From: Erysipelotrichales bacterium
GTDB taxonomy: Bacteria > Bacillota_I > Bacilli_A > RF39 > UBA660
Direction: 5' to 3'
Length of the DNA: 64,000 nucleotides
NCBI GenBank assembly: GCA_022508565.1
Contig: JAFLUY010000008.1
Location: 9,325-73,324 of the forward strand
Shown: one piece after another, positions 4,671-53,488 of the stretch
How positions within the stretch are numbered: position 1 is the first letter of the stretch
Layout of the letters: every line of letters begins with the position of its first letter
Position numbers and translations under genes: made by a program
Notes under the pieces: generated by a model
Databases searched by the model: none
What the model saw: the letters and a program-made list of their open reading frames with translations, nothing else
What the model was told of the DNA's origin: nothing

Positions 4671-5699
4671 ATGAATAATTCTTTTGGAAATATTTATAGG
4701 CTTACAACATTTGGAGAAAGTCATGGCCCTGCTATAGGAGGAATTATTGATGGGATTCCTTCTAATTTAGATATAAATATCGAAAAAATTCAATTAGCAT
4801 TAAATAAAAGAAAGCCAGGACAATCTTCACTATCAACTCCACGTAAAGAAAATGATATCGTAGAAATCCTTTCCGGTATTTACAAAAATAAAACATTAGG
4901 TTCCCCAATTGGATTTATCATTCGTAATCATGATATTAAGTCGAATGATTATGATGAAAACATATATCGTCCGTCTCATGGAGATTTTACTTATGAAGCA
5001 AAATATAAAATAAGAGATTATCGAGGAGGAGGTAGAGCGAGTGCCAGAGAAACCGCTTGTCGGATTGTTGCAGGAGAGATCGCAAAACAAATATTAAATC
5101 AAATAGCAAAAATAAATGTTTATACTTGTATTTCTCAAATCGGAAATATTAAAATAAATGAAAATTCTGATAATGAAATATTTAAAAAAGAAATAGAAGA
5201 CGAAATATTAAAGGTTAAAAAAACAGGAGATAGTATTGGAGGTAAAATTTCATGTATTATTGATTGTCCTGTTGGTCTTGGCGAACCAGTATATAATAAA
5301 TTACAAAGTGAATTATCTTCAGCAATGTTTTCTATTCCTGGAGTCAAAGGTTTTGAATATGGGTTAGGATTCGATTTTTGTAATAAAAAGGGATCTGAAG
5401 TAAATGATGAATTTTATTCAGATGGAATTAATATATTTACTAAATCAAATAATTCAGGAGGAATACAAGGAGGTATAAGTAATGGGCAACCGATATATTT
5501 TAATGTGGCATTTAAACCTACTCCTTCGATTTCTATAGAACAATCAACAATTGATAAAGATTTAAATAATATACATACTAAAATTAAAGGAAGACATGAT
5601 CCTTGTATCGTACCTAGAGCTCTTTATGTAGTAGAAGCAATGACCTATATAGTTATGCTCGACCAAATTATGATGAATCGATCAAAATCATTTTATTAA
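4671..5699 (+). CDS. aroC: chorismate synthase
   Basis: FGESHG, RPSHGD, GGGRASARETACR and GGISNG motifs. 342 aa is typical for AroC. Confidence 0.9.
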   Translation: MNNSFGNIYRLTTFGESHGPAIGGIIDGIPSNLDINIEKIQLALNKRKPGQSSLSTPRKENDIVEILSGIYKNKTLGSPIGFIIRNHDIKSNDYDENIYRPSHGDFTYEAKYKIRDYRGGGRASARETACRIVAGEIAKQILNQIAKINVYTCISQIGNIKINENSDNEIFKKEIEDEILKVKKTGDSIGGKISCIIDCPVGLGEPVYNKLQSELSSAMFSIPGVKGFEYGLGFDFCNKKGSEVNDEFYSDGINIFTKSNNSGGIQGGISNGQPIYFNVAFKPTPSISIEQSTIDKDLNNIHTKIKGRHDPCIVPRALYVVEAMTYIVMLDQIMMNRSKSFY

Positions 5700-22228: not shown

Positions 22229-22324
22229 AAAAAATAATTAAAATTATATATAAAAATATGATTAGAACTTTGAAAAAATTTTAAAAAGTCCTATCATTAT
22301 AATGTAACACAAAATAAACGAATT

Positions 22325-22480
22325 ATGAAAGTTTTCAAAATCTCTACTCCATCTAATGAAATGATCTCTTATGGTTCTTTCTCTACTTCTCAAGCAAAGA
22401 AGAAAGCTAAAGAATTGTCTAAGATATTCGGAAAAGTTACATTATATAATGTAACTGAAAATAGAATTATGAATTATTAA
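22325..22480 (+). CDS. possible small ORF (51 aa), not in the ORF track
   Basis: Hand translation gives MKVFKISTPSNEMISYGSFSTSQAKKKAKELSKIFGKVTLYNVTENRIMNY*. It would be the first gene of a plus-strand block. Confidence 0.35.
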   Translation: MKVFKISTPSNEMISYGSFSTSQAKKKAKELSKIFGKVTLYNVTENRIMNY

Positions 22481-22574
22481 AAGTAAAATAAATAGTATTA
22501 TATTAAAAAGATAGTTAAAGGGATAATTAAATTTAGTTATCTCTTTTCTATTTTAATATTAAAGAAAATTTAAT

Positions 22575-23216
22575 ATGGATAAAGATAGAACATTTAAAAT
22601 TACCGAAATAGTAGACTTAGATAAAACTTCTTTTTATTCTTTAGTCAATTTGGATTTAAAAGAAGTTGGAGCAGTAATCATTAAAGATGGAGAAATCAAA
22701 ATGAATTTAAATAATGGAGAAAATACTTCCTTTAATGACGATTATGAATCTTTGTTAAGATATGTAAAACGAAATGGTTTATGTTTTGTAAAATTAGATG
22801 AAGAGTCTAGATGGGAAGAATTCAATCCAAATCCGCTTGGTAAAAAGGTTGATGATTGTTCAATTAGATCATATTGTGCTGCTAAAGGGATAGAATGGGA
22901 TACGGCTTTTGATTATGCTTGCGAAATAGCAGAAAAGGAAAAAGATATTATAAATTCAGGAACGGTTTGTCATAAAGTAGTTACAGAGAAACTTGGAATG
23001 AAACTTAATAAAGAGTCTAAAAAAGTAAAACCTAAAGACCGAATAACCGTTATGGAGTGGGCTTGTCTGCATAATTCAGGAACTTATATACTTGATTGTG
23101 GAAAACATTATTGTACAGTTTCTGAAGGCAAATATTATGATTCATGGAATTCAGGAAAACAAAAAGTAAAAGCTTTTTATGAATTTCCGGATGAATCTTA
23201 TGTACCGGAAGAATAA
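22575..23216 (+). CDS. hypothetical protein; the C-terminal half may be a papain-like Cys peptidase fold
   Basis: 213 aa. DDCSIRSYCAA (Cys95), GKHYCTV (His178) and YYDSWN (Asp189) are spaced like a Cys-His-Asp triad. Weak call. Confidence 0.55.
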   Translation: MDKDRTFKITEIVDLDKTSFYSLVNLDLKEVGAVIIKDGEIKMNLNNGENTSFNDDYESLLRYVKRNGLCFVKLDEESRWEEFNPNPLGKKVDDCSIRSYCAAKGIEWDTAFDYACEIAEKEKDIINSGTVCHKVVTEKLGMKLNKESKKVKPKDRITVMEWACLHNSGTYILDCGKHYCTVSEGKYYDSWNSGKQKVKAFYEFPDESYVPEE

Positions 23217-23229
23217 TTTTTAAAATCTT

Positions 23230-23553
23230 ATGTGGTGGATATTCAAAAAACTTAAAGAAATCAAAAATCTCGATTTTAAAGAATATCGAGAATTTAAAAT
23301 TACAAATGCTTCTAAAGAATATAAGAAGAAATATCGTAATAACAAAAATATCAAATATATAGCAAATGACATTGCTTTTGGATATGACGGTAGTGATGTA
23401 AGAAGAGAAGATAGAGTTTTATTGTATGATAAGAAAACTAATATGATGAGAATTGCAAAAGTAATGACAACTCCATTCGGAACATTACCTCCGGTATTTG
23501 ACGGAAATGAGACATTAGTAGACTACATTATAATAGCTAAAGAAATAAAATAA
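23230..23553 (+). CDS. hypothetical basic protein
   Basis: 107-aa ORF. Confidence 0.55.
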   Translation: MWWIFKKLKEIKNLDFKEYREFKITNASKEYKKKYRNNKNIKYIANDIAFGYDGSDVRREDRVLLYDKKTNMMRIAKVMTTPFGTLPPVFDGNETLVDYIIIAKEIK

Positions 23554-23601
23554 TTAATAAAGATTTCTATATTCAAACTATAAATTAATTTTATTATATA
23601 A

Positions 23602-24738
23602 ATGGAAAAAATAAATGTTTTTGATAAAACAAAAAATTTTTATAAAGTAGGTTGCAATTTTGATTTGGAATTAATTGATAAAATTGCGGAATTGAATGAA
23701 AAATACAAAGATAAAGCTAGGGTAGTTGAATTTTTTGGAAGTGATGCTACACATGAAGAGTTGACGGCAAGACCTGGTTGGAGACTTCCTGATATTTCAA
23801 AAGAGTATTTTGAAGAATATATTAAAAAAGCTAAAGAAAAGGGAATATTATTTAATTATACAATGAATTCTATTCAACCTTATGGTAGTAAGAATGAATT
23901 GTTGGCACATAAAAAAGAAGTACAAGAATTTGTTAAATGGCTAGAAAATATTGGAGTATACAGGATTACTATTGCTAATCCTATAATGGCTTTAATAATT
24001 AGAGAAGTATCAAATATCGAATTAGAAATGTCGTGTATTGGACATGTCGATACTGTTACCCAACTTAGATTCTATCATGAAGAATTAGGAATAAATAAAT
24101 TTTGTGTTTCGATTCTTAAAAATAGAAATAAGAAATGGCTAAAGAATGCCGCAAAATATGCTAATGAAAATAATATTATATTAGAACTTTTAGCAAATGA
24201 ATTTTGTTCAGTTGCCGGAATAGGTAAAAATGGCAGTCCATACGCAACCCATTGTGCTTTTAGAGATTCTTGTTATCTTTGTCATGCGATGAATCGTACA
24301 AAAGAAGATTCGATGTCATATAATAATTATCCGATGAATTATTGTATGTCAGCTAGAAATTCAACTCCTGAAGCTTGGCTTAGAACTCGTTGGATTCGTC
24401 CAGAAGATTTACATTATTATAATGAAATTGGAATAAATTATTTTAAAGTTAGTGGTAGAACCGGCACAACAGAATATCTAATAAGAATTATTGAAGCTTA
24501 TATGTCTGAAAATTTTGATGCTAATCTACTTGAACTTTGGAAACCTCTTGAAACTATATATAACGGAGTAAAAGAATCTTCTCATAAACATACAGTGAAT
24601 ATTCCAAATAAAAAACTCGATAAATTTTTGGATAAATGGTTTATAGGAGAAGGATGGGAATGTGCTGATGAACTTTGCGGAACTACTTGTACATATTGTG
24701 AAGAATTTGCAAAGTCTCATAATCTCTACGAGAATTGA
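23602..24738 (+). CDS. peptidase-U32-family-like protein (family of the O2-independent, prephenate-dependent hydroxylases RlhA/TrhP/UbiU-UbiV)
   Basis: The block order resembles a U32 TIM barrel: ARPGWRLPDISKEYFEEYIKKAKEKGILFNYTMNS, ENIGVYRITIANPIMALIIRE, IELEMSCIGHV, ELGINKFCVSILKNR, ILELLANEFCS...THCAFRDSCYLCH (4 Cys). A second Cys cluster, CADELCGTTCTYC, lies at the C-terminus. The PROSITE U32 signature is only partly matched. Confidence 0.5.
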   Translation: MEKINVFDKTKNFYKVGCNFDLELIDKIAELNEKYKDKARVVEFFGSDATHEELTARPGWRLPDISKEYFEEYIKKAKEKGILFNYTMNSIQPYGSKNELLAHKKEVQEFVKWLENIGVYRITIANPIMALIIREVSNIELEMSCIGHVDTVTQLRFYHEELGINKFCVSILKNRNKKWLKNAAKYANENNIILELLANEFCSVAGIGKNGSPYATHCAFRDSCYLCHAMNRTKEDSMSYNNYPMNYCMSARNSTPEAWLRTRWIRPEDLHYYNEIGINYFKVSGRTGTTEYLIRIIEAYMSENFDANLLELWKPLETIYNGVKESSHKHTVNIPNKKLDKFLDKWFIGEGWECADELCGTTCTYCEEFAKSHNLYEN

Positions 24739-24740
24739 TA

Positions 24741-24782
24741 TATTGCGAAGAATTTGCTAAAACCAATTTATTATATGAATGA
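24741..24782 (+). pseudogene. orphan duplicate of the 3' end of the U32-like gene (ghost C-terminus)
   Basis: tat tgc gaa gaa ttt gct aaa acc aat tta tta tat gaa tga encodes YCEEFAKTNLLYE*. The real gene ends YCEEFAKSHNLYEN*. Differences are mostly synonymous, and the copy is out of frame 2 nt after the real stop. Confidence 0.6.
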
Positions 24783-24802
24783 AAAATAAAAAATATTTTT
24801 AA

Positions 24803-24982
24803 ATGAAAGTAAAAGAAATTATTGAAAAATTATCTGAATTTGACGAAAATCAAGAAGTAAGAGTATTCGCTCAATGTAAGAATAAATCTTTGGGAATAAA
24901 TTATGTCTTACAATATAATACTGATGTAATGATATATTTAGATAAAGAAGACGAAAAAAATTTATTTAATATTAATCCTTAA
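24803..24982 (+). CDS. possible small ORF (59 aa), just under the ORF-track cutoff
   Basis: [59 protein letters not shown]. It ends 2 nt before infA. Confidence 0.45.
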
Positions 24983-24984
24983 TT

Positions 24985-25206
24985 ATGGCAAAACAAGAAG
25001 CGATTACAGTTGATGGTGAGGTAATTGAAGCTCTTTCGAATTCAATGTTTAGAGTCGAAATTGATAATGGACATGAATTATTGTGCCATATATCTGGGAA
25101 AATCCGAATGAATAATATTCGTATCATGCCAGGAGATAGAGTTAAAGTAGAAATGAGTCCTTATGATTTATCAAAAGGAAGAATATCATATCGATATAAA
25201 CAATGA
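24985..25206 (+). CDS. infA: translation initiation factor IF-1
   Basis: Alignable over its full length with E. coli IF-1 (MFRVE..NGH....HISGK.R.N.IRI..GD.V.VE..PYDL.KGRI..R). 73 aa. Confidence 0.92.
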
Positions 25207-25227
25207 AATTAAATTTAATTATATAAA

Positions 25228-25794
25228 ATGGAAATTATACAAAATGATTTTTTCGAAGGAGTAATTGTTTTAGAGCCCGAAATACATGAAGATGAGAGAG
25301 GATATTTTTATGAAACTTGGCACAATTACCAATACAATACATATTTAGATCATCTTTATGGTAATTTTATACAAGATAATGAATCTTGCTCTAAAAAAGG
25401 AGTTTTTAGAGGTTTGCATTGGCAATTGCCTCCATTTGATCAAGCAAAATTAGTAAGGTGTGTTAAAGGGCATATTATTTCTTTTGTCGTTGATATGAGA
25501 TTGAATTCTGAAAGATGCGGACAGTATAAATATTTTGATTTAAGCGAAAAAAATAAACGTCAACTTTTTATACCAAGAGGTTTTGCTCATGGTTATTTAT
25601 CATTAGAAGATGATACCATAGTAAATTGTAAAGTTGATAATTATTATAATGATTATTGTGAAAGGTCTTTTAATGTAGCCGATTTACATTTAGAAAATCT
25701 TTTAAATAAATTTAATTTTAATATGGTTTTATCAGAAAAAGATGCCGAGGCTCCGATGATTAAAGATTTAGAAGAAACAGACTTTTTCTATTAA
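25228..25794 (+). CDS. rfbC: dTDP-4-dehydrorhamnose 3,5-epimerase-like cupin
   Basis: HEDERGYFYE, FRGLHWQ..P..QAKLVRCVKG.I...VVDMR and LFIPRGFAHGY motifs. Confidence 0.85.
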   Translation: MEIIQNDFFEGVIVLEPEIHEDERGYFYETWHNYQYNTYLDHLYGNFIQDNESCSKKGVFRGLHWQLPPFDQAKLVRCVKGHIISFVVDMRLNSERCGQYKYFDLSEKNKRQLFIPRGFAHGYLSLEDDTIVNCKVDNYYNDYCERSFNVADLHLENLLNKFNFNMVLSEKDAEAPMIKDLEETDFFY

Positions 25795-25920
25795 ATGAAA
25801 AATCTTGTAAAAATTATTATAGGAAATATTTTAACAATTTTTAGTTTATTCTTATTTATATCATTTTTAGTATCTTATGAAATTTATTATCAAATTTCTA
25901 AATTTTTAAAAAAGTTTTGA
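25795..25920 (+). CDS. possible 41-aa single-pass membrane peptide
   Basis: MKNLVKIIIGNILTIFSLFLFISFLVSYEIYYQISKFLKKF*. The ATG directly abuts the rfbC stop. Confidence 0.35.
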   Translation: MKNLVKIIIGNILTIFSLFLFISFLVSYEIYYQISKFLKKF

Positions 25921-25959
25921 AAAATAATATGAAAAGTTGATAATATTTCCATTTATCAA

Positions 25960-26706
25960 ATGAAAAAATTAATTATATTTCCTGACATCCATGGAAGAAA
26001 GTTCTGGAAAGAACCTTTTGAAACTTTTAAGAATAATGAAGATTATGGGTTCATTTTCTTAGGAGATTATATAGATGCGTACAAATTTGAAAATATTTCT
26101 GAAAATGATGCAATAGATAATTTTAAAGAAATATTAGATAATTGTATAAATCATCCAAGAACTACAATGTTAGTCGGTAATCATGATATTCATTATCTGC
26201 CACCATTGGATGAAGAATATGGATGTCGAAGATATGATAAATATAAAAAAGAAATTCAGAAGCTTTTCTTAAATAATATAGATAAATTTCGGGTTTGTCA
26301 TATTGAAAAGATTGGCGATACTAGATATGTTTTTTCTCATGCCGGATTTCTAAAATCTTGGATAGAACAAGCTAGTTACGGATTAAAGAATCTATCTATA
26401 ACATTAGATAATGTAAACGATTTATTGTATTCAGAAGATGGCCTGTTCGCGTTGTCGATGTATGGATATGAAAGAGGCGCAAGATCAAGATTCGCAGTTG
26501 GATCTTGTGTTTGGGCAGACATACAAGAGCACCTCGGAATATATGATAGATTCGAAAAAAATATTTATCAAATTTTTGCGCATAATCAAGCGTTTCCGTA
26601 CTTTGATGATTTCACACAATATTATATTTGTGAAGATTTCGCAATGTTAGATGCACAAAAACCATTTGTATTAGATTTAGAAAATGGAAAACTTAGTGAA
26701 TTATGA
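25960..26706 (+). CDS. calcineurin-like metallophosphoesterase
   Basis: The ordered motifs DIHG, GDYID, GNHD and SHAG are present. Confidence 0.8.
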   Translation: MKKLIIFPDIHGRKFWKEPFETFKNNEDYGFIFLGDYIDAYKFENISENDAIDNFKEILDNCINHPRTTMLVGNHDIHYLPPLDEEYGCRRYDKYKKEIQKLFLNNIDKFRVCHIEKIGDTRYVFSHAGFLKSWIEQASYGLKNLSITLDNVNDLLYSEDGLFALSMYGYERGARSRFAVGSCVWADIQEHLGIYDRFEKNIYQIFAHNQAFPYFDDFTQYYICEDFAMLDAQKPFVLDLENGKLSEL

Positions 26707-26737
26707 AATCTCACTAATTTAATACTATTATAATATC

Positions 26738-26908
26738 ATGAAAACTAATATTAAAATTGGAGTTTATTCTTATTCCGAAAGAGAATTGGCTCAAATAATT
26801 AGGAGAAAGATGGTTTCTAAAGACCATGGAAATAAACGTAAATATAATAGAAATTCAGAAAAGAGGAATTTTAAAAGAGATTCCTCTTATTTTTTATATG
26901 TAGCATAA
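26738..26908 (+). CDS. possible small basic ORF (56 aa)
   Basis: MKTNIKIGVYSYSERELAQIIRRKMVSKDHGNKRKYNRNSEKRNFKRDSSYFLYVA*. Confidence 0.3.
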   Translation: MKTNIKIGVYSYSERELAQIIRRKMVSKDHGNKRKYNRNSEKRNFKRDSSYFLYVA

Positions 26909-26921
26909 ATATTTTATATCA

Positions 26922-27206
26922 ATGGAAGAAATTAATATTTTAAGGAATAAGATCGATATATGTGATAAAAAAATTGTTGACTTAATATTCGACCGTCTAG
27001 AATTGTGTAAACAAATCGGGAAAATTAAAAAAGAAAACAATTTAAATGTTATTGATAATAATCGTTGGCAAAATATTATTGATAAAATAATAAAATTAGC
27101 AAAAAATAAAAGTAATAAAGAAACAGAGGAAGATTATGTCTATCTTATAATTAATATTTATAATTTGATACACGAAACAAGCTGTAATCTACAAAAGAAT
27201 GAATAA
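26922..27206 (+). CDS. chorismate mutase (AroQ class, CM_2-type)
   Basis: LRNKIDICDKKIVDLIFDRLELCKQIGKIKKEN...VIDNNRW matches the LR..ID..D..I..L...R......IG..K......D..R pattern. 94 aa, stand-alone. Confidence 0.8.
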   Translation: MEEINILRNKIDICDKKIVDLIFDRLELCKQIGKIKKENNLNVIDNNRWQNIIDKIIKLAKNKSNKETEEDYVYLIINIYNLIHETSCNLQKNE

Positions 27207-27777
27207 TAAATTAATTGTTATTGATGGTCAAGATCGGACAGGTAAAGACACTTTATTGAATGATATTATTAAGAATCATCCAGAAAATTATATAATATAT
27301 TATCAAACTACCTGTGATGATGCAAAAGTTGATTATCGAGATAAAGTAGCATTTACAAAACATCAGAAAAAACTTATTGAAAAAGTTTTTAACGATATTA
27401 AAAAATTAAAAGAAGAAAATCCAAATAAAAATATTGTGTGTATGAGACTTTGGATTTCTGATGAAGTTTATAGTGATATGTTTGATAGAGAGCATGTCAC
27501 CATTCAATATAAAGAGGAATTTGAAAAAATTTTTGGAAAAGAAAATATTTTATATTTTGTATTTCTTTGGAAATCTTTTAATGATTTTGTTTCCCGAATG
27601 CAAAATATAAAGGATAATCATGGACTAAATGAATATTCTGAAGAGGAATTCCAAAAAGTAAAAAAATTATTTGTGAAATATTCTGAAAAATATAGTACTA
27701 AAATTTACTATATTGAAAATGAAACTAGTCAAAGACAATTGTTTAATTATATAAATACTTATTTACATGATGAATAA
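27199..27777 (+). CDS. P-loop (d)NMP kinase-like protein (T4 gp1 / thymidylate-kinase-like)
   Basis: The P-loop IVIDGQDRTGKDTLLNDI resembles T4 gp1 FLSGVKRSGKDTTADFI (from memory) and Tmk EG.DG.GK.T. It overlaps the chorismate mutase gene by 8 nt. Confidence 0.5.
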   Translation: MNNKLIVIDGQDRTGKDTLLNDIIKNHPENYIIYYQTTCDDAKVDYRDKVAFTKHQKKLIEKVFNDIKKLKEENPNKNIVCMRLWISDEVYSDMFDREHVTIQYKEEFEKIFGKENILYFVFLWKSFNDFVSRMQNIKDNHGLNEYSEEEFQKVKKLFVKYSEKYSTKIYYIENETSQRQLFNYINTYLHDE

Positions 27778-28930
27778 TAAAATTAAATATGGTAGTGAAG
27801 AAGATTTTTATAATATGATTAAGAATAAAAAGATTCTTTATATACCTATTGTTTCTTCAATAAATAGAGAAACAGGAGAATATAATCTCGATAGTGATGG
27901 AAATATCAATCGATTGGTTACAGCATTTAGTATAAATGATTCTTTTGAATGTTTGGATCTTGTATTGCCTAAAAAACATAGTAAAGAAACTAAAATCTTA
28001 GATGCATTTAAAGAAAATAATGAAAATATTAATTTCATATTTTCAGATTTTTTTGGAATACATGCAGGAGAGCAACGTTCAAATATGTTTATCATTACAA
28101 ATTTAGTTAATGAATTAGAAAGAAATAAGAGTTTTGATTCGTACGATTATGTGATTTTAGATTCTCAATATCTTTTGATTTATTTAAATAAATACAATTA
28201 TGTTGATCGAAATAAATTGATATTTTGGAATTATCTTTGTTCAACAAAAAAATATCAAAGATCTTTTACTGCTCCATTTGTAGATATTACTAAAGATGCA
28301 ATCAATATTGCAAAATATGTAATTGTGACATCTCCAGATATTTTAGAATTCACTGCCGATGAAAAGATGGATAGGGCAGATGATTCTTTATTTTATATTC
28401 CTAAATTTGTAGATCGAAAATTAGACATATTTTCTAAATACGAGGAAGATCAGGAAGTCTATGATATATTAGATTCATATATAGAAAGCAAGACTATCCC
28501 TTTTTATCTTCCTTTCAGATTAACTGATGAAGCTTATAAAATGGATTTAGTTATTTCTGATTTTATTTTGCCATATCAAAGCATAGCGGAAATTAACGGA
28601 TATGATATTTCGTTAATTTATTCAGATCCAAATAATTCAGGTGAAATGGAAAATTTTATTGAAAAATATCCCGAATTAGATAAAGATAATATTATTTTGC
28701 AAAAAGTATCACCAGCAAGAGATACTTTCTATACAATTATTGATCATCCTATTGGAGTAAATATCCCTTATTTTGAAGACATCGATTTTGCTAACCATGC
28801 CGCTATATGGGAATTTAAAGATTCTAATGCAAATATTTGGGTATTACCTAAATATGATGGAATGTTGATGCCGTATTATGAAAAAACAGACACATCTATA
28901 TTTAAATCTTATGAAATTTTAAAAAACTAA
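27767..28930 (+). CDS. hypothetical protein (two Rossmann-like halves; a GT-B-type glycosyltransferase is possible but unproven)
   Basis: 387 aa, overlapping the kinase-like gene by 11 nt. Alternating beta-strand-like hydrophobic runs (ILYIPIV, YVILDS, YVIVTSPD, ISLIYSDP) are visible, but no diagnostic motif. Confidence 0.6.
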   Translation: MMNNKIKYGSEEDFYNMIKNKKILYIPIVSSINRETGEYNLDSDGNINRLVTAFSINDSFECLDLVLPKKHSKETKILDAFKENNENINFIFSDFFGIHAGEQRSNMFIITNLVNELERNKSFDSYDYVILDSQYLLIYLNKYNYVDRNKLIFWNYLCSTKKYQRSFTAPFVDITKDAINIAKYVIVTSPDILEFTADEKMDRADDSLFYIPKFVDRKLDIFSKYEEDQEVYDILDSYIESKTIPFYLPFRLTDEAYKMDLVISDFILPYQSIAEINGYDISLIYSDPNNSGEMENFIEKYPELDKDNIILQKVSPARDTFYTIIDHPIGVNIPYFEDIDFANHAAIWEFKDSNANIWVLPKYDGMLMPYYEKTDTSIFKSYEILKN

Positions 28931-29020
28931 TATCTATATTATAAAAATATAAATTTTAACTTATGTTTTTAATTTTATTTTTTAATTTATAAATTTAATT
29001 TAATTTTTTAAACAAGACAC

Positions 29021-30178
29021 ATGAAAAAGTTTTTTACACTTGTAGTTGCCATGATTATGGCAGTAGGTGCAACATTTGCACAGACAACTCATGATTGCGA
29101 ACAGTCAAATTATGCAGGTCATGCAAGATTTTTTGACAATTGGACAATTGGTCTTGAAGGTGGTGTACAGACAAATCTTTATGATTGGAACACTCCTGAA
29201 GGTGCAGTCATTGGACTTAATTTGAACAAGTATATTGTTCCTCAGTTTAGAGTAAGTCTTCAGGGCTATATGGGATTCAATAATACTGGTATGTGGAATA
29301 CTCCCGCAGGACATGTTCATAATGGTACTGGAGTAGATAATGTTCAGGTTTATTTGACCGGCGGTTGGAATCTTATGAATACTTTTAGTAAATATACTGG
29401 AAAACCTAAAGTATTTGAAATTGAGACAGAAATTGGTGTTGGTTATGGACATTTCTTTTATAATCCTTCAACATGGAATTATGGAGTAGTACTCGGTAAG
29501 ACTGGGCTTGATTTCCGTTTCAATCTTGGCAAGGCTAGAGCATGGGCAATCGATATTCGTCCAACATTTATTTGGGATTTCACAAACGCGCTTGCTTATG
29601 AGCAAATAGCATCTAATCGTACAGCAGTATTCCAGGTTACCGCTGGTGTAGAATATCGATTCAATACTTCCAATGGTACTCATAATATGAAGCCTGCAGA
29701 TCTTTATGACTGTGTTGAAGTAAATGCTCTTAATATGCGTATTAATGAACTTCTCGCATGTAATGATGAACTTAAGAAAGCTCTCGAAGAATGTCTGAAT
29801 CGTCCTAAGGAAGTAGAAGTTGTTGAAGAAACAACAGTTGTTACAAATACTAATGTAGTAACTAAGCCGGTATTCGCAACAATTGGTTTTGAACGCAATT
29901 CATCAAAGATTCTCGGAGTTTATGATCTTAATGTTCGTACAATTGCTGATTTCATGAAAGCTTCTGATCAGCATTTCACAGTAGTTGGTTTTGCATCTGA
30001 AGAAGGTAATGTAGATTATAATGAAGCTCTTTCACTTCGTAGAGCTCAGGCTGTAGCAGATGCGCTTGAAGCTTATGGTGTAGATCCGGCTAAGATTCAT
30101 GTAGAAGGTAAAGGCGCTACTACAGAATTTGGTAATGCTCTTGATTTGAATCGTACTGTGCAGATTGTAGCAGAATAA
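29021..30178 (+). CDS. OmpA-family outer-membrane protein (N-terminal beta-barrel-like region, coiled-coil linker, C-terminal OmpA peptidoglycan-binding domain)
   Basis: Signal peptide MKKFFTLVVAMIMAVGATFAQ. The C-terminus reads FERNSSKI...VVGFASEEGNVDYNEALSLRRAQAVADAL...VEGKG. G+C and codon usage are visibly richer than in neighbouring genes. Confidence 0.85.
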   Translation: MKKFFTLVVAMIMAVGATFAQTTHDCEQSNYAGHARFFDNWTIGLEGGVQTNLYDWNTPEGAVIGLNLNKYIVPQFRVSLQGYMGFNNTGMWNTPAGHVHNGTGVDNVQVYLTGGWNLMNTFSKYTGKPKVFEIETEIGVGYGHFFYNPSTWNYGVVLGKTGLDFRFNLGKARAWAIDIRPTFIWDFTNALAYEQIASNRTAVFQVTAGVEYRFNTSNGTHNMKPADLYDCVEVNALNMRINELLACNDELKKALEECLNRPKEVEVVEETTVVTNTNVVTKPVFATIGFERNSSKILGVYDLNVRTIADFMKASDQHFTVVGFASEEGNVDYNEALSLRRAQAVADALEAYGVDPAKIHVEGKGATTEFGNALDLNRTVQIVAE

Positions 30179-30204
30179 TTTTTTAATCCAATTTAATTTT
30201 TTAT

Positions 30205-30250
30205 AAGGGCCGATGGAGATAAGAACTATCGGTCCTTGACTATTTTTATT
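30205..30250 (+). terminator. rho-independent terminator
   Basis: Stem aagggccgat (30205-30214) / atcggtcctt (30228-30237) with one G-U pair. A T-rich tract follows. Confidence 0.6.
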
Positions 30251-30320
30251 TCAGAACATTTGAAATATTTCAGAAAGTTTCTATTTATAAATTGTAAAAC
30301 AATTAAAATATAAAAAGATC

Positions 30321-30791
30321 ATGGGAACAAATTTTTATCTTCGTAGAAAGATTTCAGAAAAAGATAAACAAAATGTTATTGAACAGATTTACAAAGATAA
30401 TTGGATTGAAGCAAGAGATTTAGTTTACAAACTAACTGAAAGAGTTCATATTGGAAAACGTTCTAGCGGCTGGCAATTTCTTTGGAATGCTAATAGATTT
30501 GAATATTTTTCGCCAAACATAGAATCTCTTCAAAATTGGCTTAAGTCAGGAATTATCGAAGATGAATATGGAAGAGAATTCACATTTGAAGAATTCTGGA
30601 ATGATGAGATAAAAGATTTCCTATATGAAGGATGGAATCTCGAAAAATATTATTCCGAGTCAGGAAATACATGGTTCGGCAGAGATATTCCATATTATTT
30701 CCAAGATAAATTGGATAAATTTGATATCGATAAATATGGAGAGTTTGTTATTGATGGACTTAGATTTACTATTACGGAAGAATTTAGTTAA
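30321..30791 (+). CDS. hypothetical protein
   Basis: 156-aa ORF with the TTCTATTTA-N5-TGTAAAAC motif 21 nt upstream. Confidence 0.6.
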   Translation: MGTNFYLRRKISEKDKQNVIEQIYKDNWIEARDLVYKLTERVHIGKRSSGWQFLWNANRFEYFSPNIESLQNWLKSGIIEDEYGREFTFEEFWNDEIKDFLYEGWNLEKYYSESGNTWFGRDIPYYFQDKLDKFDIDKYGEFVIDGLRFTITEEFS

Positions 30792-30797
30792 AAACTT

Positions 30798-31121
30798 ATG
30801 AAGACTTCAACAAATACAGAGCAGATAAAAAATTTATATGAATTAGGGTTTAGTGATTCTAATTGTAAATATATTAAGAATGATATATTTGGTCCTGCTG
30901 CATTTACTATATCTGATTTTTTAGAAATATTACCTAAAGAGATAAAAATTGACGATAAAATATATCAACAAATTATTCTATGGAGTGGCCAATCATATTT
31001 TAGCGGATATAGAATCCATGATACTGATGAATGGCTTTACCAATCTACAATGAAAGATGAAATGTTAGATAGCTTATATGAGGTTGTCATTTGGTACTAT
31101 GGAAAATTTTTGAAGAAATAA
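30798..31121 (+). CDS. hypothetical protein
   Basis: 107-aa ORF. Confidence 0.55.
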   Translation: MKTSTNTEQIKNLYELGFSDSNCKYIKNDIFGPAAFTISDFLEILPKEIKIDDKIYQQIILWSGQSYFSGYRIHDTDEWLYQSTMKDEMLDSLYEVVIWYYGKFLKK

Positions 31122-31150
31122 CTATTTTGGAATTATAAAATAAAATTATT

Positions 31151-31924: not shown

Positions 31925-31948
31925 AAAGTTTACAAAAAGTTTTAGAAT

Positions 31949-32921: not shown

Positions 32922-33096
32922 GCAATTTATATTAAATCAAGAAGAAATTGTTGCTGTTAAAGACGCTATAATTGAATATATCTTTAAACATCAATGGTTT
33001 GGGAATCCTGAAACAACTAACATTCAGGGTAATTTAGAAATTTTGGATAAATTAGACAAACGAATAGATGAATTTTTATGCGAAAATATGGATTAA
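32902..33096 (+). CDS. hypothetical protein
   Basis: 64-aa ORF that overlaps both neighbours. Confidence 0.45.
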   Translation: MKNRMSEQFILNQEEIVAVKDAIIEYIFKHQWFGNPETTNIQGNLEILDKLDKRIDEFLCENMD

Positions 33097-33800
33097 TTGG
33101 ATATCCTCTTAGACATTCATGGTCGAGAGGATATTTCACAAATAAATTTAAAGAAAATAATATTGATGCTTTCTATGATAATTTAGAAATTGAAAATTTA
33201 GAAGGAATAAAAGATTTATTAGTTTCAAATAATTATAAAGGTTTTAATGTGACAATTCCATATAAAGAAAAAATTTTGGGATATGTAGATGGAATAGATG
33301 ATAAAGTAAATACAATTAAAGCATGTAATTGTATAAAAATTATAGATGGAATCTTTATAGGTACTAATACAGACATTATTGGATTTAAAGAATCATATAA
33401 AGATATATTAAATCCAAATAAAAAGGCATTAATATTAGGTACCGGAGGAGCAAGCAAATCTGTTGCTTTTGTTTTAGACGAATTAGGAATTAAATATAAA
33501 TACGTCTCTCGTTCATATAAGGACAGGGCATTAGAGTATAAAGATTTAAATAAAGAAATCATTAACTCTCATAAAATAATTATTAATACGACTCCTTTAG
33601 GAACTTTTCCAAATATCAATCAGTTTCCGGATATTCCTTATGATTTCATAACACCTGAGCATGTTTGTATAGATCTGATTTATAATCCTGAGAAAACATT
33701 ATTTTTGCAAAAATGCGAAAAACAAGGAGCTACTATAAGAAATGGATATGATATGCTAATTAAGCAAGCTGAAGCTTCTTGGGATTTTTGGAATTCTTAA
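33078..33800 (+). CDS. aroE: shikimate 5-dehydrogenase
   Basis: YGLIGYPLRHSWS, GFNVTIPYKE, NTDIIGF and GTGGASKSV (Rossmann) motifs. 240 aa. Confidence 0.88.
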   Translation: MRKYGLIGYPLRHSWSRGYFTNKFKENNIDAFYDNLEIENLEGIKDLLVSNNYKGFNVTIPYKEKILGYVDGIDDKVNTIKACNCIKIIDGIFIGTNTDIIGFKESYKDILNPNKKALILGTGGASKSVAFVLDELGIKYKYVSRSYKDRALEYKDLNKEIINSHKIIINTTPLGTFPNINQFPDIPYDFITPEHVCIDLIYNPEKTLFLQKCEKQGATIRNGYDMLIKQAEASWDFWNS

Positions 33801-51319: not shown

Positions 51320-51539
51320 TAAAATCTATCAAATACAATGTAGATATGAATATTGGAGTATCGAACATGGGAAGATCTGGACTAAATGGTTTAATGTATA
51401 TGGCGAAGTATATCATAACAAAGATCTTATTGAATCTAGATTGGAAGATATAAAAAATAAAGTAACTTCAATAGATAAAATTACTAAACTTAAACACGAA
51501 TATCAAATAGTAGAAAATATAAAAGAAAATGAAAATTGA
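51312..51539 (+). CDS. hypothetical protein (start moved to the internal ATG)
   Basis: [15 protein letters not shown].... The ATG at 51312 overlaps the upstream stop (ATGAATAA). The ORF-track start at 51273 would overlap by 47 nt. Confidence 0.45.
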
Positions 51540-52699: not shown

Positions 52700-53488
52700 A
52701 TGAAGGATATACAACCAATATTTGATCCTACAAAAGGATATCCGTTTATTATTGCTGGTCCTTGTTCAGCCGAAACAGAAATGCAAGTTATGCAAACGGC
52801 TGAACAATTAAAAGAAAATGGATTCGAATATTTTCGGGCAGGAGTTTGGAAACCTCGAACTAGGCCAGGAGGATTTGAAGGAAACGGTAAAAAGGCTTTA
52901 GAATGGCTTAAAAAAGCGAAAAAAGAATTAGACATAAAAATTTGTACAGAAGTGGCAAATCAAGACCAAACAAAAATGGTACTTGATTATGGAATCGATA
53001 TCATTTGGATTGGTGCTAGGACGACTACTTCACCTTTTGCTGTACAAGAAATTGCCGATACTTTATATAAAGAAGAAAGCAGAATTCCGGTACTTGTGAA
53101 AAATCCTCCTTGTCCAGATTTAGAATTGTGGATAGGAGCAATAGAAAGATTTTACAATGCCGGAATAAGAAAATTGGGAGCTATTCACCGAGGTTTTTTA
53201 GAATGGCCGAAAAGTGTATATCGGAATTCTCCTATTTGGGCAATTCCGACAGAATTTTCAAAGAGAATTCCAGAAATAACTATGATTCATGATCCTTCGC
53301 ATATTAGTGGAGATAAAGAGTTGATTGAATATCTTTCTAAAAAAGCGATTAATGGAAATGTATTTGATGGACTTATGATAGAATCTCATTATAAACCTGA
53401 ATTAGCAATTACAGATGCTAGACAACAAATTACTCCAGAAGAATTATATAAAATAATATCAAATATTAAAGAAAATTATATTTTATAA
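52700..53488 (+). CDS. 3-deoxy-7-phosphoheptulonate (DAHP) synthase, type I-beta-like
   Basis: PFIIAGPCSAE, FRAGVWKPRTRPGGFEG.G..AL.WL and IHDPSHISG motifs. 262 aa. Confidence 0.8.
   Translation: MKDIQPIFDPTKGYPFIIAGPCSAETEMQVMQTAEQLKENGFEYFRAGVWKPRTRPGGFEGNGKKALEWLKKAKKELDIKICTEVANQDQTKMVLDYGIDIIWIGARTTTSPFAVQEIADTLYKEESRIPVLVKNPPCPDLELWIGAIERFYNAGIRKLGAIHRGFLEWPKSVYRNSPIWAIPTEFSKRIPEITMIHDPSHISGDKELIEYLSKKAINGNVFDGLMIESHYKPELAITDARQQITPEELYKIISNIKENYIL

What the first reader, a model, noticed from the sequence alone, without database searches (positions are those of the whole stretch)
23602..28930. Candidate O2-independent, prephenate-dependent hydroxylation / hypermodification module (U32-like + chorismate mutase + dNMP-kinase-like + RfbC + unknown 387-aa protein)
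One co-directional, tightly packed block holds, in order: a peptidase-U32-like protein with two Cys clusters (23602..24738), IF-1, an RfbC-type sugar-nucleotide epimerase, a metallophosphoesterase, and chorismate mutase. The mutase is translationally coupled (8-nt overlap) to a kinase-like gene whose P-loop GQDRTGKDT recalls T4 gp1 dNMP kinase (GVKRSGKDT). That gene in turn overlaps, by 11 nt, a 387-aa protein with two Rossmann-like halves. Established knowledge: U32-family proteins RlhA (23S rRNA ho5C2501), TrhP (tRNA ho5U34) and UbiU/UbiV carry Fe-S clusters and perform O2-independent hydroxylations that depend on prephenate. Inference: in an anaerobic host (nrdD/nrdG are present), the phage supplies prephenate to its own U32 hydroxylase. 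The target could be RNA (consistent with IF-1 next door). It could instead be pyrimidine nucleotides destined for phage DNA, in a sequence of hydroxylation, then the gp1-like kinase, then a possible sugar decoration. I know of no described phage pathway of this kind.
Basis: inference. Interest (0 to 1): 0.85.

Follow-up and report, generated by a model that had tools for sequence, protein, structure and literature searches.

The report
Oxygen-free phage DNA hydroxylation-glycosylation module
A giant phage from an oxygen-poor habitat carries genes that most likely add a hydroxyl group and then a sugar to a DNA base without using oxygen, with an iron-sulfur 'U32' enzyme fed by phage-made prephenate standing in for the oxygen-dependent enzyme of the related systems described in 2025-26.

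Summary
All genes, coordinates and overlaps in the finding are confirmed. The conserved core is four genes: a U32-family protein (23602-24738), chorismate mutase (26922-27206), a dTMP-kinase-like kinase (27199-27777) and the 387-aa protein (27767-28930). The 387-aa protein is a GT-B glycosyltransferase homologous to RB69 gp46:47, the first DNA arabinosyltransferase of the glycosyl-5-hydroxycytosine (5hoC) systems.

In about 30 related non-Straboviridae loci, U32 sits beside this glycosyltransferase and kinase. It often overlaps chorismate mutase or a DAHP-synthase/chorismate-mutase fusion, and in one phage lineage a complete shikimate operon lies next to it. None of these loci has the O2/flavin-dependent ThyA-like 5hodCMP synthase. 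All 20 T4-like loci have both enzymes.

IF-1, RfbC and the phosphoesterase are recent insertions, so the RNA reading loses its support.

Best reading (about 0.6): an O2-independent, prephenate-consuming route to a 5-hydroxypyrimidine, probably 5hoC, in phage DNA, followed by glycosylation. This is a new variant of a known hypermodification. It also assigns a function to RB69 gp50.

Not shown: enzyme activity, the substrate, and whether a ThyA homologue lies in the unread ~313 kb of the genome.

The parts
23602..24738 (+). U32-family protein, the candidate prephenate-dependent, O2-independent pyrimidine C5-hydroxylase. It is the orthologue (52% identity) of RB69 gp50-type proteins.
   Evidence: Pfam PF01136 34.6 bits, above the 22.4 cutoff. 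PHROG 5757 E 1e-132. AlphaFold2 pLDDT 89, top PDB hit 5d88 U32 Mk0906 at E 1e-8. Three of the four RlhA/TrhP Fe-S cysteine positions align (C202, C224, C248). C218 and a C-terminal CX4CX3CX2C group are also invariant. 222 T4-like phage records carry a 52%-identical orthologue inside the 5hoC cluster.
26922..27206 (+). AroQ-class chorismate mutase, the prephenate supplier. It is translationally coupled to the kinase.
   Evidence: Pfam CM_2 68 bits. Catalytic R11, R28, K39, R51, S84 and Q88 (E. coli PheA numbering) are kept, and E52 is replaced by W. In relatives it overlaps the U32 stop codon or is fused to DAHP synthase.
27199..27777 (+). dTMP-kinase-like P-loop nucleotide kinase, the counterpart of RB69 gp45 / DLP3 gp78. 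Its exact substrate is unknown.
   Evidence: NCBIfam DTMP_kinase E 1e-6 over the full length but below cutoff; PHROG 761 thymidylate kinase E 1e-7. A profile of the jumbo-phage kinases picks out the five Straboviridae cluster kinases at 12-18 bits. It is conserved with the glycosyltransferase in relatives and fused to it in L020 and L054.
27767..28930 (+). GT-B glycosyltransferase of the family of RB69 gp46:47 (5hoC-DNA arabinosyltransferase 1). It probably glycosylates the hydroxylated base in DNA.
   Evidence: AlphaFold2 pLDDT 91.7. PDB hits: glycogen synthase 3fro, sucrose-phosphate synthase 6kih, MshA 3c4q and BshA 3mbo. Top BFVD hits: Acinetobacter phage KARL-1 (TM 0.71, E 1.5e-11) and RB69ORF047c (TM 0.73). 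The family HMM hits the Straboviridae glycosyltransferases at 33-46 bits with shared motifs.
25228..25794 (+). dTDP-4-dehydrorhamnose 3,5-epimerase (RmlC). A lineage-specific insertion that may shape the sugar donor. The assignment to the module is weak.
   Evidence: TIGR01221 160.5 bits, above cutoff. Absent from the cluster in L048, L005, L006, L008 and all IMG/VR loci. Shared only with the 91%-identity relative.
25960..26706 (+). Metallophosphoesterase. A lineage-specific insertion with an unclear role.
   Evidence: Pfam Metallophos 38 bits. Not found in relatives' clusters.
4671..5699 (+). Chorismate synthase (AroC), part of the phage-encoded prephenate supply.
   Evidence: Pfam 420 bits; NCBIfam equivalog 415 bits, above cutoff. 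In L049/L050 the orthologue lies in a full aro operon beside U32.
33078..33800 (+). Shikimate dehydrogenase (AroE), part of the prephenate supply.
   Evidence: Pfam Shikimate_dh_N 73 bits; TIGR00507 173 bits, below its 200 cutoff.
52700..53488 (+). Class I-beta DAHP synthase, the first shikimate step. It is fused to chorismate mutase and adjacent to U32 in relatives.
   Evidence: Pfam DAHP_synth_1 125 bits. NCBIfam DAHP synthase models 153-164 bits against KDO8P synthase 56 bits. 49-51% identical to the DAHPS half of the fusions in L006, L008 and L048.

Best explanation
The block is the core of a phage DNA hypermodification pathway of the glycosyl-5-hydroxypyrimidine type, adapted to life without oxygen.

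Proposed steps:
1. The phage makes prephenate. It uses its own DAHP synthase, AroE, AroC and chorismate mutase here, and a complete shikimate operon in a relative.
2. The U32 Fe-S protein uses prephenate as oxygen donor to hydroxylate C5 of a pyrimidine. The most likely substrate is deoxycytidylate, giving 5hodCMP.
3. The dTMP-kinase-like kinase acts on the modified nucleotide, or otherwise assists the glycosyltransferase.
4. The phage polymerase incorporates the modified nucleotide into DNA.
5. The GT-B glycosyltransferase attaches a sugar to the 5-hydroxyl in DNA. This shields the genome from host nucleases.

U32 plus prephenate takes the place of the flavin/O2-dependent ThyA-like 5hodCMP synthase of RB69, DLP3 and RL38J1. 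In RB69-like coliphages, which carry both enzymes, U32 would be the anaerobic alternative, by analogy with TrhO/TrhP and UbiIHF/UbiUV.

Shown here: gene identities, homologies and co-occurrence.
Inferred: the enzymatic activity of U32, the base and the level (nucleotide or DNA) it acts on, the identity of the sugar, and the role of the kinase.
For: 1. U32 membership: Pfam above cutoff. The top PDB fold hit is the only solved U32 structure, 5d88. Conserved cysteines align with three of the four Fe-S ligand positions of RlhA/TrhP/UbiU, and the FKxSGR motif aligns with their FKIEGR.

2. Prephenate link: U32 overlaps chorismate mutase or a DAHPS-CM fusion in L005, L006 and L008, and abuts one in L048-L050, L022-L025, L043 and L052-L054. 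L049/L050 carry AroB, AroK, AroQ-AroA, AroC and AroE 3 kb from U32. No prephenate-consuming Phe or Tyr enzyme appears among the Pfam families listed for the called genes of those loci. The window itself encodes DAHPS, AroE, AroC and chorismate mutase. Prephenate is the oxygen donor for the U32 enzymes UbiU/V and is required by TrhP and RlhA (PMC10990095, PMC6599085, PMC5727448).

3. DNA-modification link: the 387-aa protein belongs to the RB69 gp46:47 DNA glycosyltransferase family. The kinase matches the RB69 gp45-type kinases. 20 of 22 non-Straboviridae loci, plus L048-L050 and L052-L055, have this glycosyltransferase within a few kb of U32. Kinase-glycosyltransferase fusions occur in L020 and L054.

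4. Displacement: all 20 Straboviridae loci have a ThyA homologue. None of about 30 non-Straboviridae loci (some duplicated) has one within 10 kb, and there is none in the 64-kb window. The compact kinase-GT-U32 operons in L027, L045 and L046 mirror kinase-GT-ThyA in RB69, DLP3 and RL38J1 (PMC13326640).

5. U32 tracks the base side of the pathway, not the sugar side. It persists where the arabinose genes (API, AfhE-like, HAD) are absent: the window, L048, L027 and L044-46.

6. Oxygen logic: the ThyA-type synthase needs O2 (18O2 labelling, PMC13326640). The window encodes the anaerobic reductase NrdD/NrdG. Among isolates, U32 is found in 222 phages of Enterobacterales and Shewanella. Acinetobacter is not among the ten most frequent organism names nor among the rows listed, although 57 Acinetobacter (strict aerobe) phage records have the glycosyltransferase.
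Against: - No biochemical data exist for any phage U32. Direct hydroxylase activity has not been reconstituted in vitro even for cellular U32 proteins (PMC10990095).
- The fourth canonical Fe-S cysteine is missing and the cysteine spacing differs. There is no NCBIfam match to TrhP, RlhA or UbiU/V, so this is a divergent subfamily.
- About 313 kb of the 377-kb parent contig could not be read, so a ThyA homologue may exist elsewhere in the genome.
- About 70 isolated phages with the glycosyltransferase, about 40 of them named Escherichia, lack U32. It is therefore dispensable for some phages of facultative anaerobes.
- A 46%-identical homologue with the same cysteine pattern lies in an ordinary bacterial context without glycosyltransferase, kinase or chorismate mutase (L056). 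The subfamily therefore has some other, cellular substrate as well.
- All jumbo-clade chorismate mutases carry Glu52 to Trp.
- The kinase homology to RB69 gp45 is weak (12-18 bits).
- The two papers most likely to have addressed gp50 (He et al. 2026, Mahler et al. 2025) could not be read.
Confidence: 0.6

Rival explanations
1. The U32 protein belongs to the hypermodification pathway but is not the base hydroxylase. It would act on the sugar donor or remodel the modified base afterwards, as in the 'sugar or heterocycle reductase' label given to RB69 gp50. The 5-hydroxyl would come from an unseen enzyme elsewhere in the genome.
For: PMC13326640 Table 1 gives that label. In T4-like phages U32 lies between the sugar-activation genes and the ThyA homologue. 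Most of the parent genome is unread.
Against: The label in the paper rests on fold hits only. U32 is retained where the arabinose-pathway genes are missing (window, L048, L027, L044-46), so it is not tied to one sugar. Its constant partner besides the glycosyltransferase and kinase is prephenate synthesis, which is the oxygen-donor signature of U32 hydroxylases. No alternative hydroxylase appears in any of about 30 loci.
Confidence: 0.15
2. The U32 protein hydroxylates RNA (tRNA U34 or 23S rRNA C2501, like TrhP and RlhA) to tune translation during infection. Its closeness to the DNA-modification genes is coincidental or regulatory.
For: All characterised nucleic-acid U32 enzymes act on RNA (PMC5727448, PMC6599085). 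IF-1 lies next door in the window. A cellular homologue (L056) sits near a tRNA synthetase gene.
Against: IF-1 adjacency is confined to the window's immediate lineage. There are no tRNA genes in the window. U32 is linked to the glycosyltransferase and kinase across 48-91% identity, including overlapping kinase-GT-U32 operons. A whole shikimate pathway is a large investment for the few hydroxylations RNA would need.
Confidence: 0.07
3. The chorismate mutase and aro genes serve another purpose, and U32 is unrelated to them or is a peptidase as annotated. Possible purposes are aromatic amino-acid supply as an auxiliary metabolic function, or prephenate for carboxy-SAM as in the CmoA/CmoX 5-carboxymethylcytosine system.
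For: Phage CmoA uses prephenate for a DNA modification (PMC12783734). The databases annotate the gene as 'peptidase'.
Against: Pfam found no CmoA or methyltransferase-like ORF among window ORFs of 150 aa or more. The Pfam families listed for the called genes of L049/L050 include no prephenate dehydratase or dehydrogenase. The U32 stop codon overlaps the chorismate mutase or DAHPS-CM start codon in several lineages, which argues for coupled function. The conserved cysteine clusters fit an Fe-S enzyme, not a protease.
Confidence: 0.05
4. The pathway is as in the best explanation, but the modified base is 5-hydroxyuracil replacing thymine, or the hydroxylation is done on DNA after replication rather than on the mononucleotide.
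For: TrhP makes ho5U, and known U32 nucleic-acid substrates are polymers. The genome is only 22-32% G+C in 2-kb bins, so modifying T would cover more sites. No dCTPase or T4 gp1-type kinase was seen in the window.
Against: The glycosyltransferase and kinase are homologous to those of cytosine systems. In Straboviridae U32 co-occurs with a dCMP-specific synthase and with dCTP-depleting enzymes (PMC13326640), which calls for a nucleotide-level product. A nucleotide kinase in the operon suggests a mononucleotide intermediate.
Confidence: 0.13

Closest known systems
Glycosylated 5-hydroxycytosine DNA systems of RB69, HY126, Acinetobacter phage DLP3 and Rhizobium phage RL38J1 (PMC13326640; He et al. 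2026 and Mahler et al. 2025, cited there)
   Same: Homologous GT-B 'glycosyltransferase 1' and a dTMP-kinase-like kinase, adjacent to each other. Relatives of the window phage also carry the arabinose-5-P isomerase, AfhE-like nucleotidyltransferase/kinase and HAD phosphatase. The window U32 is 52% identical to RB69 gp50, which lies inside that cluster.
   Different: No ThyA-like flavin/O2 5hodCMP synthase in the window or within 10 kb of U32 in any non-Straboviridae relative. Chorismate mutase and shikimate genes are attached instead. The window has RmlC instead of arabinose genes. The published work assigns no hydroxylase role to U32.
Prephenate-dependent U32 hydroxylases: RlhA (23S rRNA ho5C2501), TrhP (tRNA ho5U34) and UbiU/UbiV (anaerobic ubiquinone)
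   Same: Pfam U32 family and TIM-barrel fold. Conserved cysteines at three of the four Fe-S ligand positions. The FKxxGR motif. A genomic coupling to prephenate synthesis. C5 hydroxylation of a pyrimidine is exactly the RlhA/TrhP chemistry.
   Different: A separate, divergent subfamily with no NCBIfam match. It has an insertion carrying an extra invariant cysteine and a C-terminal CX4CX3CX2C group. It is a single protein of about 370 aa. The inferred substrate is a DNA precursor or DNA rather than RNA or a quinone.
T4 hydroxymethylcytosine glucosylation
   Same: The same overall logic: a modified dCMP is made before replication, a kinase acts on it, the polymerase incorporates it, and a sugar is transferred to it in DNA.
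   Different: A different base chemistry (hydroxyl rather than hydroxymethyl), different enzymes, and no folate-dependent ThyA homologue here.
CmoA/CmoX 5-carboxymethylcytosine pathway of Synechococcus phage S-B43 (PMC12783734)
   Same: A phage DNA cytosine modification borrowed from RNA-modification chemistry that consumes prephenate.
   Different: There prephenate feeds carboxy-SAM synthesis, and the modifying enzyme is a methyltransferase homologue. No CmoA/CmoX homologue was found here.

Membership tests
Peptidase U32 / prephenate-dependent hydroxylase family | Match to Pfam PF01136 above the gathering score | tested here: met
   34.6 bits against 22.4, E 1.5e-8. Only the N-terminal part of the profile is covered well. 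Most homologues carry a precomputed PF01136 hit.
Peptidase U32 / prephenate-dependent hydroxylase family | U32 TIM-barrel fold | tested here: met
   AlphaFold2 model pLDDT 89. The best PDB match is 5d88 (U32 Mk0906), E 1.1e-8, TM 0.59 on the target. The remaining hits are generic TIM barrels.
Peptidase U32 / prephenate-dependent hydroxylase family | Four conserved cysteines (CX6CX15CX3-4C) that bind a 4Fe-4S cluster | tested here: inconclusive
   C202, C224 and C248 align with RlhA C169, C176 and C192. The fourth position is absent, but invariant C218 lies in an insertion between the first two. The spacing differs. A further C354/C359/C363/C366 group is conserved. Metal binding is not testable here.
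Peptidase U32 / prephenate-dependent hydroxylase family | Membership of a characterised subfamily (TrhP, RlhA, UbiU, UbiV) | tested here: not met
   No NCBIfam family at E 0.01 or better. phmmer against PDB sequences found nothing. hhalign to the four E. coli proteins is weak.
Peptidase U32 / prephenate-dependent hydroxylase family | Prephenate-dependent, O2-independent hydroxylation activity | not testable with these tools
   Only genomic coupling to chorismate mutase, DAHPS and the aro genes is shown.
Glycosyl-5-hydroxycytosine DNA hypermodification system (RB69/DLP3/RL38J1 type) | ThyA-homologue 5hodCMP synthase (D169N signature) | tested here: not met
   No match to a Straboviridae ThyA-homologue HMM or by BLASTP in the 64-kb window, nor within 10 kb of U32 in any non-Straboviridae locus. 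The rest of the 377-kb genome was not read.
Glycosyl-5-hydroxycytosine DNA hypermodification system (RB69/DLP3/RL38J1 type) | Glycosyltransferase 1 of the RB69 gp46:47 / DLP3 gp79 family | tested here: met
   The family HMM hits five Straboviridae glycosyltransferases at 33-46 bits. BFVD top hits are KARL-1 and RB69ORF047c. The PDB neighbours 3c4q and 6kih are those the paper lists for RB69 gp46:47, and 3mbo is listed there for DLP3 gp76/gp77.
Glycosyl-5-hydroxycytosine DNA hypermodification system (RB69/DLP3/RL38J1 type) | Adjacent dTMP-kinase-like nucleotide kinase (RB69 gp45 type) | tested here: met
   The homology is weak but specific: BLASTP E 3e-4 to 1e-3 and profile scores of 12-18 bits to all five Straboviridae kinases. 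NCBIfam DTMP_kinase aligns over the full length at E 1e-6, below cutoff.
Glycosyl-5-hydroxycytosine DNA hypermodification system (RB69/DLP3/RL38J1 type) | NDP-arabinose supply genes (API, AfhE-like, HAD phosphatase) | tested here: not met
   Absent from the window. Present in relatives L006, L017/18, L020, L022, L024-26, L049/50 and L053-55. The window has RmlC instead.
Glycosyl-5-hydroxycytosine DNA hypermodification system (RB69/DLP3/RL38J1 type) | 5hoC with an O-linked sugar in virion DNA | not testable with these tools
   Needs nucleoside LC-MS/MS of virion DNA.
GT-B fold glycosyltransferases | Two Rossmann-like domains with structural similarity to GT4-type enzymes | tested here: met
   pLDDT 91.7. 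75 PDB matches at E 1e-3 or better; the 50 best listed are GT-B-fold enzymes (glycosyltransferases and UDP-GlcNAc 2-epimerases). Three family members hit Pfam Glyco_transf_4.
AroQ chorismate mutase | CM_2 domain with the catalytic residues of E. coli chorismate mutase | tested here: met
   68 bits. R11, R28, K39, D48, R51, S84 and Q88 are kept. E52 is Trp in the whole jumbo clade, so activity is likely but not certain.
   The best PHROG, Pfam and NCBIfam matches are thymidylate or guanylate kinase families. No dNMP-kinase family appears.

The most novel reading that the evidence does not exclude
The phage U32 protein is a prephenate-consuming, oxygen-independent cytosine (or uracil) C5-hydroxylase for DNA precursors. 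That would make it the first organic-O-donor hydroxylation feeding a genome-wide DNA modification. Phages of anaerobes would encode part or all of the shikimate pathway to pay the stoichiometric cost, roughly 1e5 prephenate per 377-kb genome copy if every C is replaced. In RB69-like coliphages the same enzyme (gp50) would be the anaerobic twin of the flavin/O2 5hodCMP synthase.
Probability: 0.5. Interest if true: 0.9.

Novelty: new variant of a known kind. Interest (0 to 1): 0.8.

Why it matters
If correct, five things follow.

1. It extends prephenate-dependent U32 hydroxylation from RNA and quinones to DNA. It also offers a system where in vitro reconstitution, still missing for the whole family, might be easier, because the substrate would be a small nucleotide.

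2. It explains how glycosyl-5-hydroxycytosine genomes can be made in the anoxic gut, where the published O2-dependent synthase cannot work.

3. It assigns a testable function to a gene conserved at 80-100% identity in 222 sequenced T4-like phages, including the model phage RB69 and several therapy candidates.

4. It gives a reason for phage-encoded shikimate pathways. One hydroxylation consumes one prephenate, so a phage that modifies every cytosine needs a large supply.

5. It gives a genomic signature for finding hypermodified genomes among uncultured giant phages: U32 with a C-terminal Cys4 group, the gp46:47-type glycosyltransferase, a dTMP-kinase-like kinase, and chorismate mutase.

The hypothesis can be tested at once in E. 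coli and RB69 with existing mutants and anaerobic culture.

Tried and rejected
- Megablast of 20000-32000 against GenBank phages found no match.
- phmmer of the U32 protein, kinase and 387-aa protein against PDB sequences found nothing useful.
- hhalign of the U32 profile against single E. coli RlhA, TrhP, UbiU and UbiV sequences gave only weak local alignments. I relied on Pfam, the fold search and a MAFFT alignment instead.
- PHROG scans of ten unannotated window ORFs gave no functional assignment.
- The sigma-70 promoter scan was at chance level, 59 sites against 57.6 expected.
- Rfam at gathering thresholds and the tRNA scan of the window found nothing.
- The DOI of He et al. 2026 is not held in the library, and Mahler et al. 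2025 did not appear in the search. Literature searches for U32 with chorismate mutase and phage, or with 5hoC, found nothing relevant.
- The wide U32 alignment (A4) was too divergent for a locus scan.
- Host inference failed. The nearest named RmlC homologues are Campylobacterota at about 50% identity. The MAG bins holding related contigs disagree (Romboutsia, Gastranaerophilaceae, Oscillospiraceae).
- KDO8P synthase was considered for 52700-53488 and rejected: DAHP synthase models score 153-164 bits against 56.
- T4 gp1-like identity for the kinase was rejected.
- IF-1 as evidence for an RNA target was rejected, because the adjacency is not conserved.

Full report
OBSERVATION.
- 23602-24738 matches Pfam Peptidase_U32 (34.6 bits, cutoff 22.4) and PHROG 5757 (E 1e-132).
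- 24985-25206 is IF-1.
- 25228-25794 is RmlC (TIGR01221, above cutoff).
- 25960-26706 is a metallophosphoesterase.
- 26922-27206 is an AroQ chorismate mutase (CM).
- The 8-nt and 11-nt overlaps linking chorismate mutase, kinase and the 387-aa ORF are exact.

The window is 22-32% G+C in 2-kb bins. It comes from a 377,382-bp metagenomic contig, ENA ERZ27293317 k141_1147735, so this is a jumbo phage. It has no nucleotide match among sequenced phages.

WHAT THE FOUR CORE PROTEINS ARE.

(a) The U32 protein. Its AlphaFold2 model (pLDDT 89) has as best PDB neighbour 5d88, the only solved U32 structure (E 1e-8). In an alignment with E. coli RlhA, TrhP, UbiU and UbiV, taken from MG1655, C202, C224 and C248 fall on three of the four Fe-S cysteine positions. 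FKVSGR falls on the family's FKIEGR motif. The fourth canonical cysteine is absent, but C218, in an insertion, is invariant. A C-terminal CX4CX3CX2C group is conserved even among representatives at 25-50% identity. There is no NCBIfam match to a characterised subfamily. This is a divergent U32 subfamily.

(b) The 387-aa protein. It models with pLDDT 91.7 as a GT-B glycosyltransferase. Its PDB neighbours are glycogen synthase, sucrose-phosphate synthase 6kih, MshA 3c4q and BshA 3mbo. 3c4q and 6kih are the neighbours published for RB69 gp46:47, and 3mbo is listed for DLP3 gp76/gp77 (PMC13326640). Against viral models the best hits are the Acinetobacter phage KARL-1 protein (TM 0.71) and RB69ORF047c (TM 0.73). 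A profile of its family finds the glycosyltransferases that sit beside the ThyA homologue in five T4-like phages, at 33-46 bits. The shared motifs are PIxSxRxxTGxYxLxxDGN, P(Y/F)R(L/I)(T/S)D, DPNxS and YFE(D/N)...H...EF.

(c) The kinase. It is dTMP-kinase-like. It weakly but specifically matches the 'thymidylate kinase' of the same T4-like clusters, the RB69 gp45 type. It is not like T4 gp1.

(d) The chorismate mutase. It keeps R11, R28, K39, D48, R51, S84 and Q88 of the E. coli enzyme. Glu52 is replaced by Trp throughout the jumbo-phage clade.

THE KEY PRECEDENT. The window U32 protein is about 52% identical to a protein encoded by 222 sequenced T4-like phages. In those phages the gene lies inside the cytosine-arabinosylation cluster. 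The cluster comprises arabinose-5-P isomerase, a bifunctional nucleotidyltransferase/kinase, a HAD phosphatase, the dTMP-kinase-like kinase, U32, the ThyA homologue and the glycosyltransferase.

Lee et al. (NAR 2026, PMC13326640) showed three things. RB69 and DLP3 DNA carries arabosylated 5-hydroxycytosine. The ThyA homologue makes 5hodCMP. The oxygen comes from O2 through a flavin. They list RB69 gp50, the U32 protein, only as 'sugar or heterocycle reductase'. They mention the RlhA and TrhP-type hydroxylations in the Discussion without connecting them to gp50.

I found no paper in the searchable library that makes that connection. He et al. 2026 and Mahler et al. 2025 could not be read.

CO-OCCURRENCE. 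I collected related loci from four sources: three assemblies carrying close homologues, two more, 33 IMG/VR loci and five GTDB MAG contigs. I scored all ORFs with local HMMs.

Result 1. All 20 Straboviridae-type loci carry U32, a ThyA homologue, the glycosyltransferase, the kinase and the AfhE-like gene. Fourteen also carry a chorismate mutase between U32 and the ThyA homologue. One of these is an unannotated chorismate mutase in Serratia phage 92A1.

Result 2. None of about 30 non-Straboviridae loci (a few are duplicates) has a ThyA homologue within 10 kb. Neither does the 64-kb window. Nearly all have the glycosyltransferase and kinase beside U32.

Result 3. In these non-Straboviridae loci the neighbour of U32 is chorismate mutase or a DAHP-synthase/chorismate-mutase fusion. 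In several (for example L005, L006, L008) its start codon overlaps the U32 stop codon.

Result 4. L049/L050 add AroB, AroK, an AroQ-AroA fusion, AroC and AroE 3 kb downstream. That is a complete phage-encoded route from PEP and erythrose-4-P to prephenate. No Phe or Tyr terminal enzyme appears among the Pfam families listed for the called genes of those loci.

Result 5. The window has the same theme in scattered form: DAHP synthase 52700-53488, AroE 33078-33800, AroC 4671-5699 and chorismate mutase.

Result 6. A third group (L027, L045, L046) has compact overlapping kinase-GT-U32 operons (L044 has GT-U32 preceded by a 174-aa ORF that the kinase profiles did not match). This is the same order as kinase-GT-ThyA in RB69 (gp45, gp46:47, gp48), DLP3 (gp78-80) and RL38J1 (214-216). 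It looks like an in-place displacement of one hydroxylase by another.

Result 7. Kinase-glycosyltransferase fusions occur in L020 and L054.

Result 8. The closest distinct relative, L048 (U32 82% identical), has U32, then the DAHPS-CM fusion, then kinase, then glycosyltransferase, contiguous. IF-1, RmlC and the phosphoesterase are therefore a recent insertion in the window's lineage. They are shared only with a 91%-identical relative.

INFERENCE. Three points lead to the proposed function.
- U32 tracks the base side of the pathway (glycosyltransferase and kinase), not the sugar side. It is retained where the arabinose genes are absent.
- Its other constant partner is prephenate synthesis. Prephenate is the oxygen donor of UbiU/V and is required by TrhP and RlhA (PMC10990095, PMC6599085, PMC5727448).
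- RlhA makes 5-hydroxycytidine, which is the same base chemistry.

The published 5hodCMP synthase needs O2. This phage encodes the anaerobic ribonucleotide reductase NrdD/NrdG.

Among isolates, the glycosyltransferase occurs in 349 phage records, including 57 Acinetobacter phages. U32 occurs in 222 records of Enterobacterales and Shewanella phages; Acinetobacter is not among the ten most frequent organism names nor among the rows listed. This fits an enzyme that is useful only when the host can grow without oxygen. The sample is phylogenetically clustered, however, and about 70 other glycosyltransferase-bearing phages also lack U32.

Within Straboviridae, U32 is 80-100% identical while the glycosyltransferase falls to 44%. 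U32 is therefore under strong constraint.

I conclude, at a confidence of about 0.6, that U32 with prephenate is an O2-independent C5-hydroxylase for the DNA hypermodification. Its most likely action is dCMP to 5hodCMP. It would be the only route in phages of anaerobes and a second route in RB69-like phages.

The cost argument is my own inference. With about 27% G+C, a 377-kb genome has roughly 1e5 cytosines, so full replacement would consume about that many prephenate molecules per genome copy. This would explain why phages carry shikimate genes.

CAVEATS.
- No activity is shown.
- The cysteine pattern departs from the canonical motif.
- The kinase homology is weak and the kinase's role is unknown, even in RB69, where gp1 phosphorylates 5hodCMP.
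- About 313 kb of the genome is unread.
- A 46%-identical homologue with the same cysteines lies in a 54% G+C contig with a bacterial-type context: a MoaA-like radical SAM gene, tyrosyl-tRNA synthetase and a TPR/NHL protein. It has no glycosyltransferase, kinase or chorismate mutase. The subfamily, with 1,175 representatives at 50% clustering, therefore also has a cellular role of unknown nature.
- The base (C or U) and the level (nucleotide or DNA) are not determined.
- The sugar is unknown. RmlC hints at a dTDP-6-deoxyhexose, but it is a recent insertion.
- The host is undetermined.

VERDICT.

The system is a new variant of the recently described glycosyl-5-hydroxycytosine hypermodification, with a different hydroxylase that does not need oxygen and is fed by phage-made prephenate. 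It is directly testable in RB69. Interest 0.8.

Noticed in passing
window 4671-5699, 33078-33800, 52700-53488, 26922-27206; L049 14314-19311: The phage encodes shikimate-pathway enzymes scattered over the window (AroC, AroE, DAHP synthase, chorismate mutase). A relative carries a complete contiguous aro operon (AroB, AroK, AroQ-AroA fusion, AroC, AroE) plus a DAHPS-CM fusion. I know of no description of a full phage-encoded shikimate pathway.
   Followed up: partly
window 48473-48760 (between ORFs 47023-48558 and 48757-49827): nrdD is split into two in-frame ORFs by about 200-290 nt that match the group I intron model RF00028 over its full length (30.8 bits, below the gathering score of 50, E 4e-6 in a 501-nt search). 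The folding z-score is -2.3. The split matches what an intron inside the gene would produce (to my knowledge phage T4 nrdD also carries a group I intron).
   Followed up: partly
window 20723-22228 (-); L005 4920-7737, L006 6313-9110, L008 5982-8725: A RimK-like ATP-grasp ligase lies just upstream of the U32 cluster on the opposite strand. In relatives there are two paralogues, one fused to an NlpC/P60 domain. The conserved neighbourhood hints at a peptide- or glutamate-ligating function, possibly unrelated to the DNA modification.
   Followed up: no
window 24985-25206: A phage-encoded translation initiation factor IF-1 (97 bits). It is part of a lineage-specific insertion together with RmlC and a metallophosphoesterase.
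   Followed up: partly
window 26861-26888, inside the 56-aa ORF 26738-26908: A 12-bp hairpin followed by a T-run lies 34 nt upstream of the chorismate mutase start codon. It may terminate the inserted IF-1/RmlC/phosphoesterase unit, and it makes the 56-aa ORF doubtful. The number of terminator-like sites in the region is not above chance.
   Followed up: no
L009 8385-8642 (Serratia phage 92A1, annotated hypothetical): An 85-aa ORF between U32 and the ThyA homologue is an unannotated chorismate mutase (41 bits, with R11, R28, K39, S84 and Q88 kept). 14 of the 20 Straboviridae loci scored (some from the same phages) carry a chorismate mutase there, including loci where it is not annotated.
   Followed up: yes
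L020 2594-4411; L054 ORF starting at 9136: Gene fusions of the dTMP-kinase-like kinase with the glycosyltransferase. The two proteins may therefore work together physically, which is not obviously expected for a simple nucleotide kinase.
   Followed up: partly
L026 8692-9954: A TnpB / IS605 OrfB (Cas12f-like) gene is inserted immediately upstream of U32 in one metagenomic phage contig.
   Followed up: no
L056 7995-9089: A 46%-identical, full-length homologue of the phage-type U32, with the same cysteine pattern, in a 54% G+C contig binned as Planctomycetota. Its neighbours are a MoaA-like radical SAM gene and tyrosyl-tRNA synthetase. It is a cellular member of the subfamily with an unknown substrate.
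   Followed up: partly
window 51529-52599, 45998-46570, 58661-63217 (-), 13559-18532 (-): Other unusual cargo: a full-length DnaJ, an NMN-adenylyltransferase-like protein, a 1,518-aa BspA-type leucine-rich-repeat protein, and ORFs of 1,657 aa (13559-18532) and 1,213 aa (54997-58638) with no family match.
   Followed up: no
window 26922-27206 and chorismate mutase domains in L005, L006, L008, L048: All jumbo-clade chorismate mutases replace the catalytic Glu52 of the E. coli enzyme with Trp (an 'RW' motif). The T4-like phage chorismate mutases keep Glu.
   Followed up: partly
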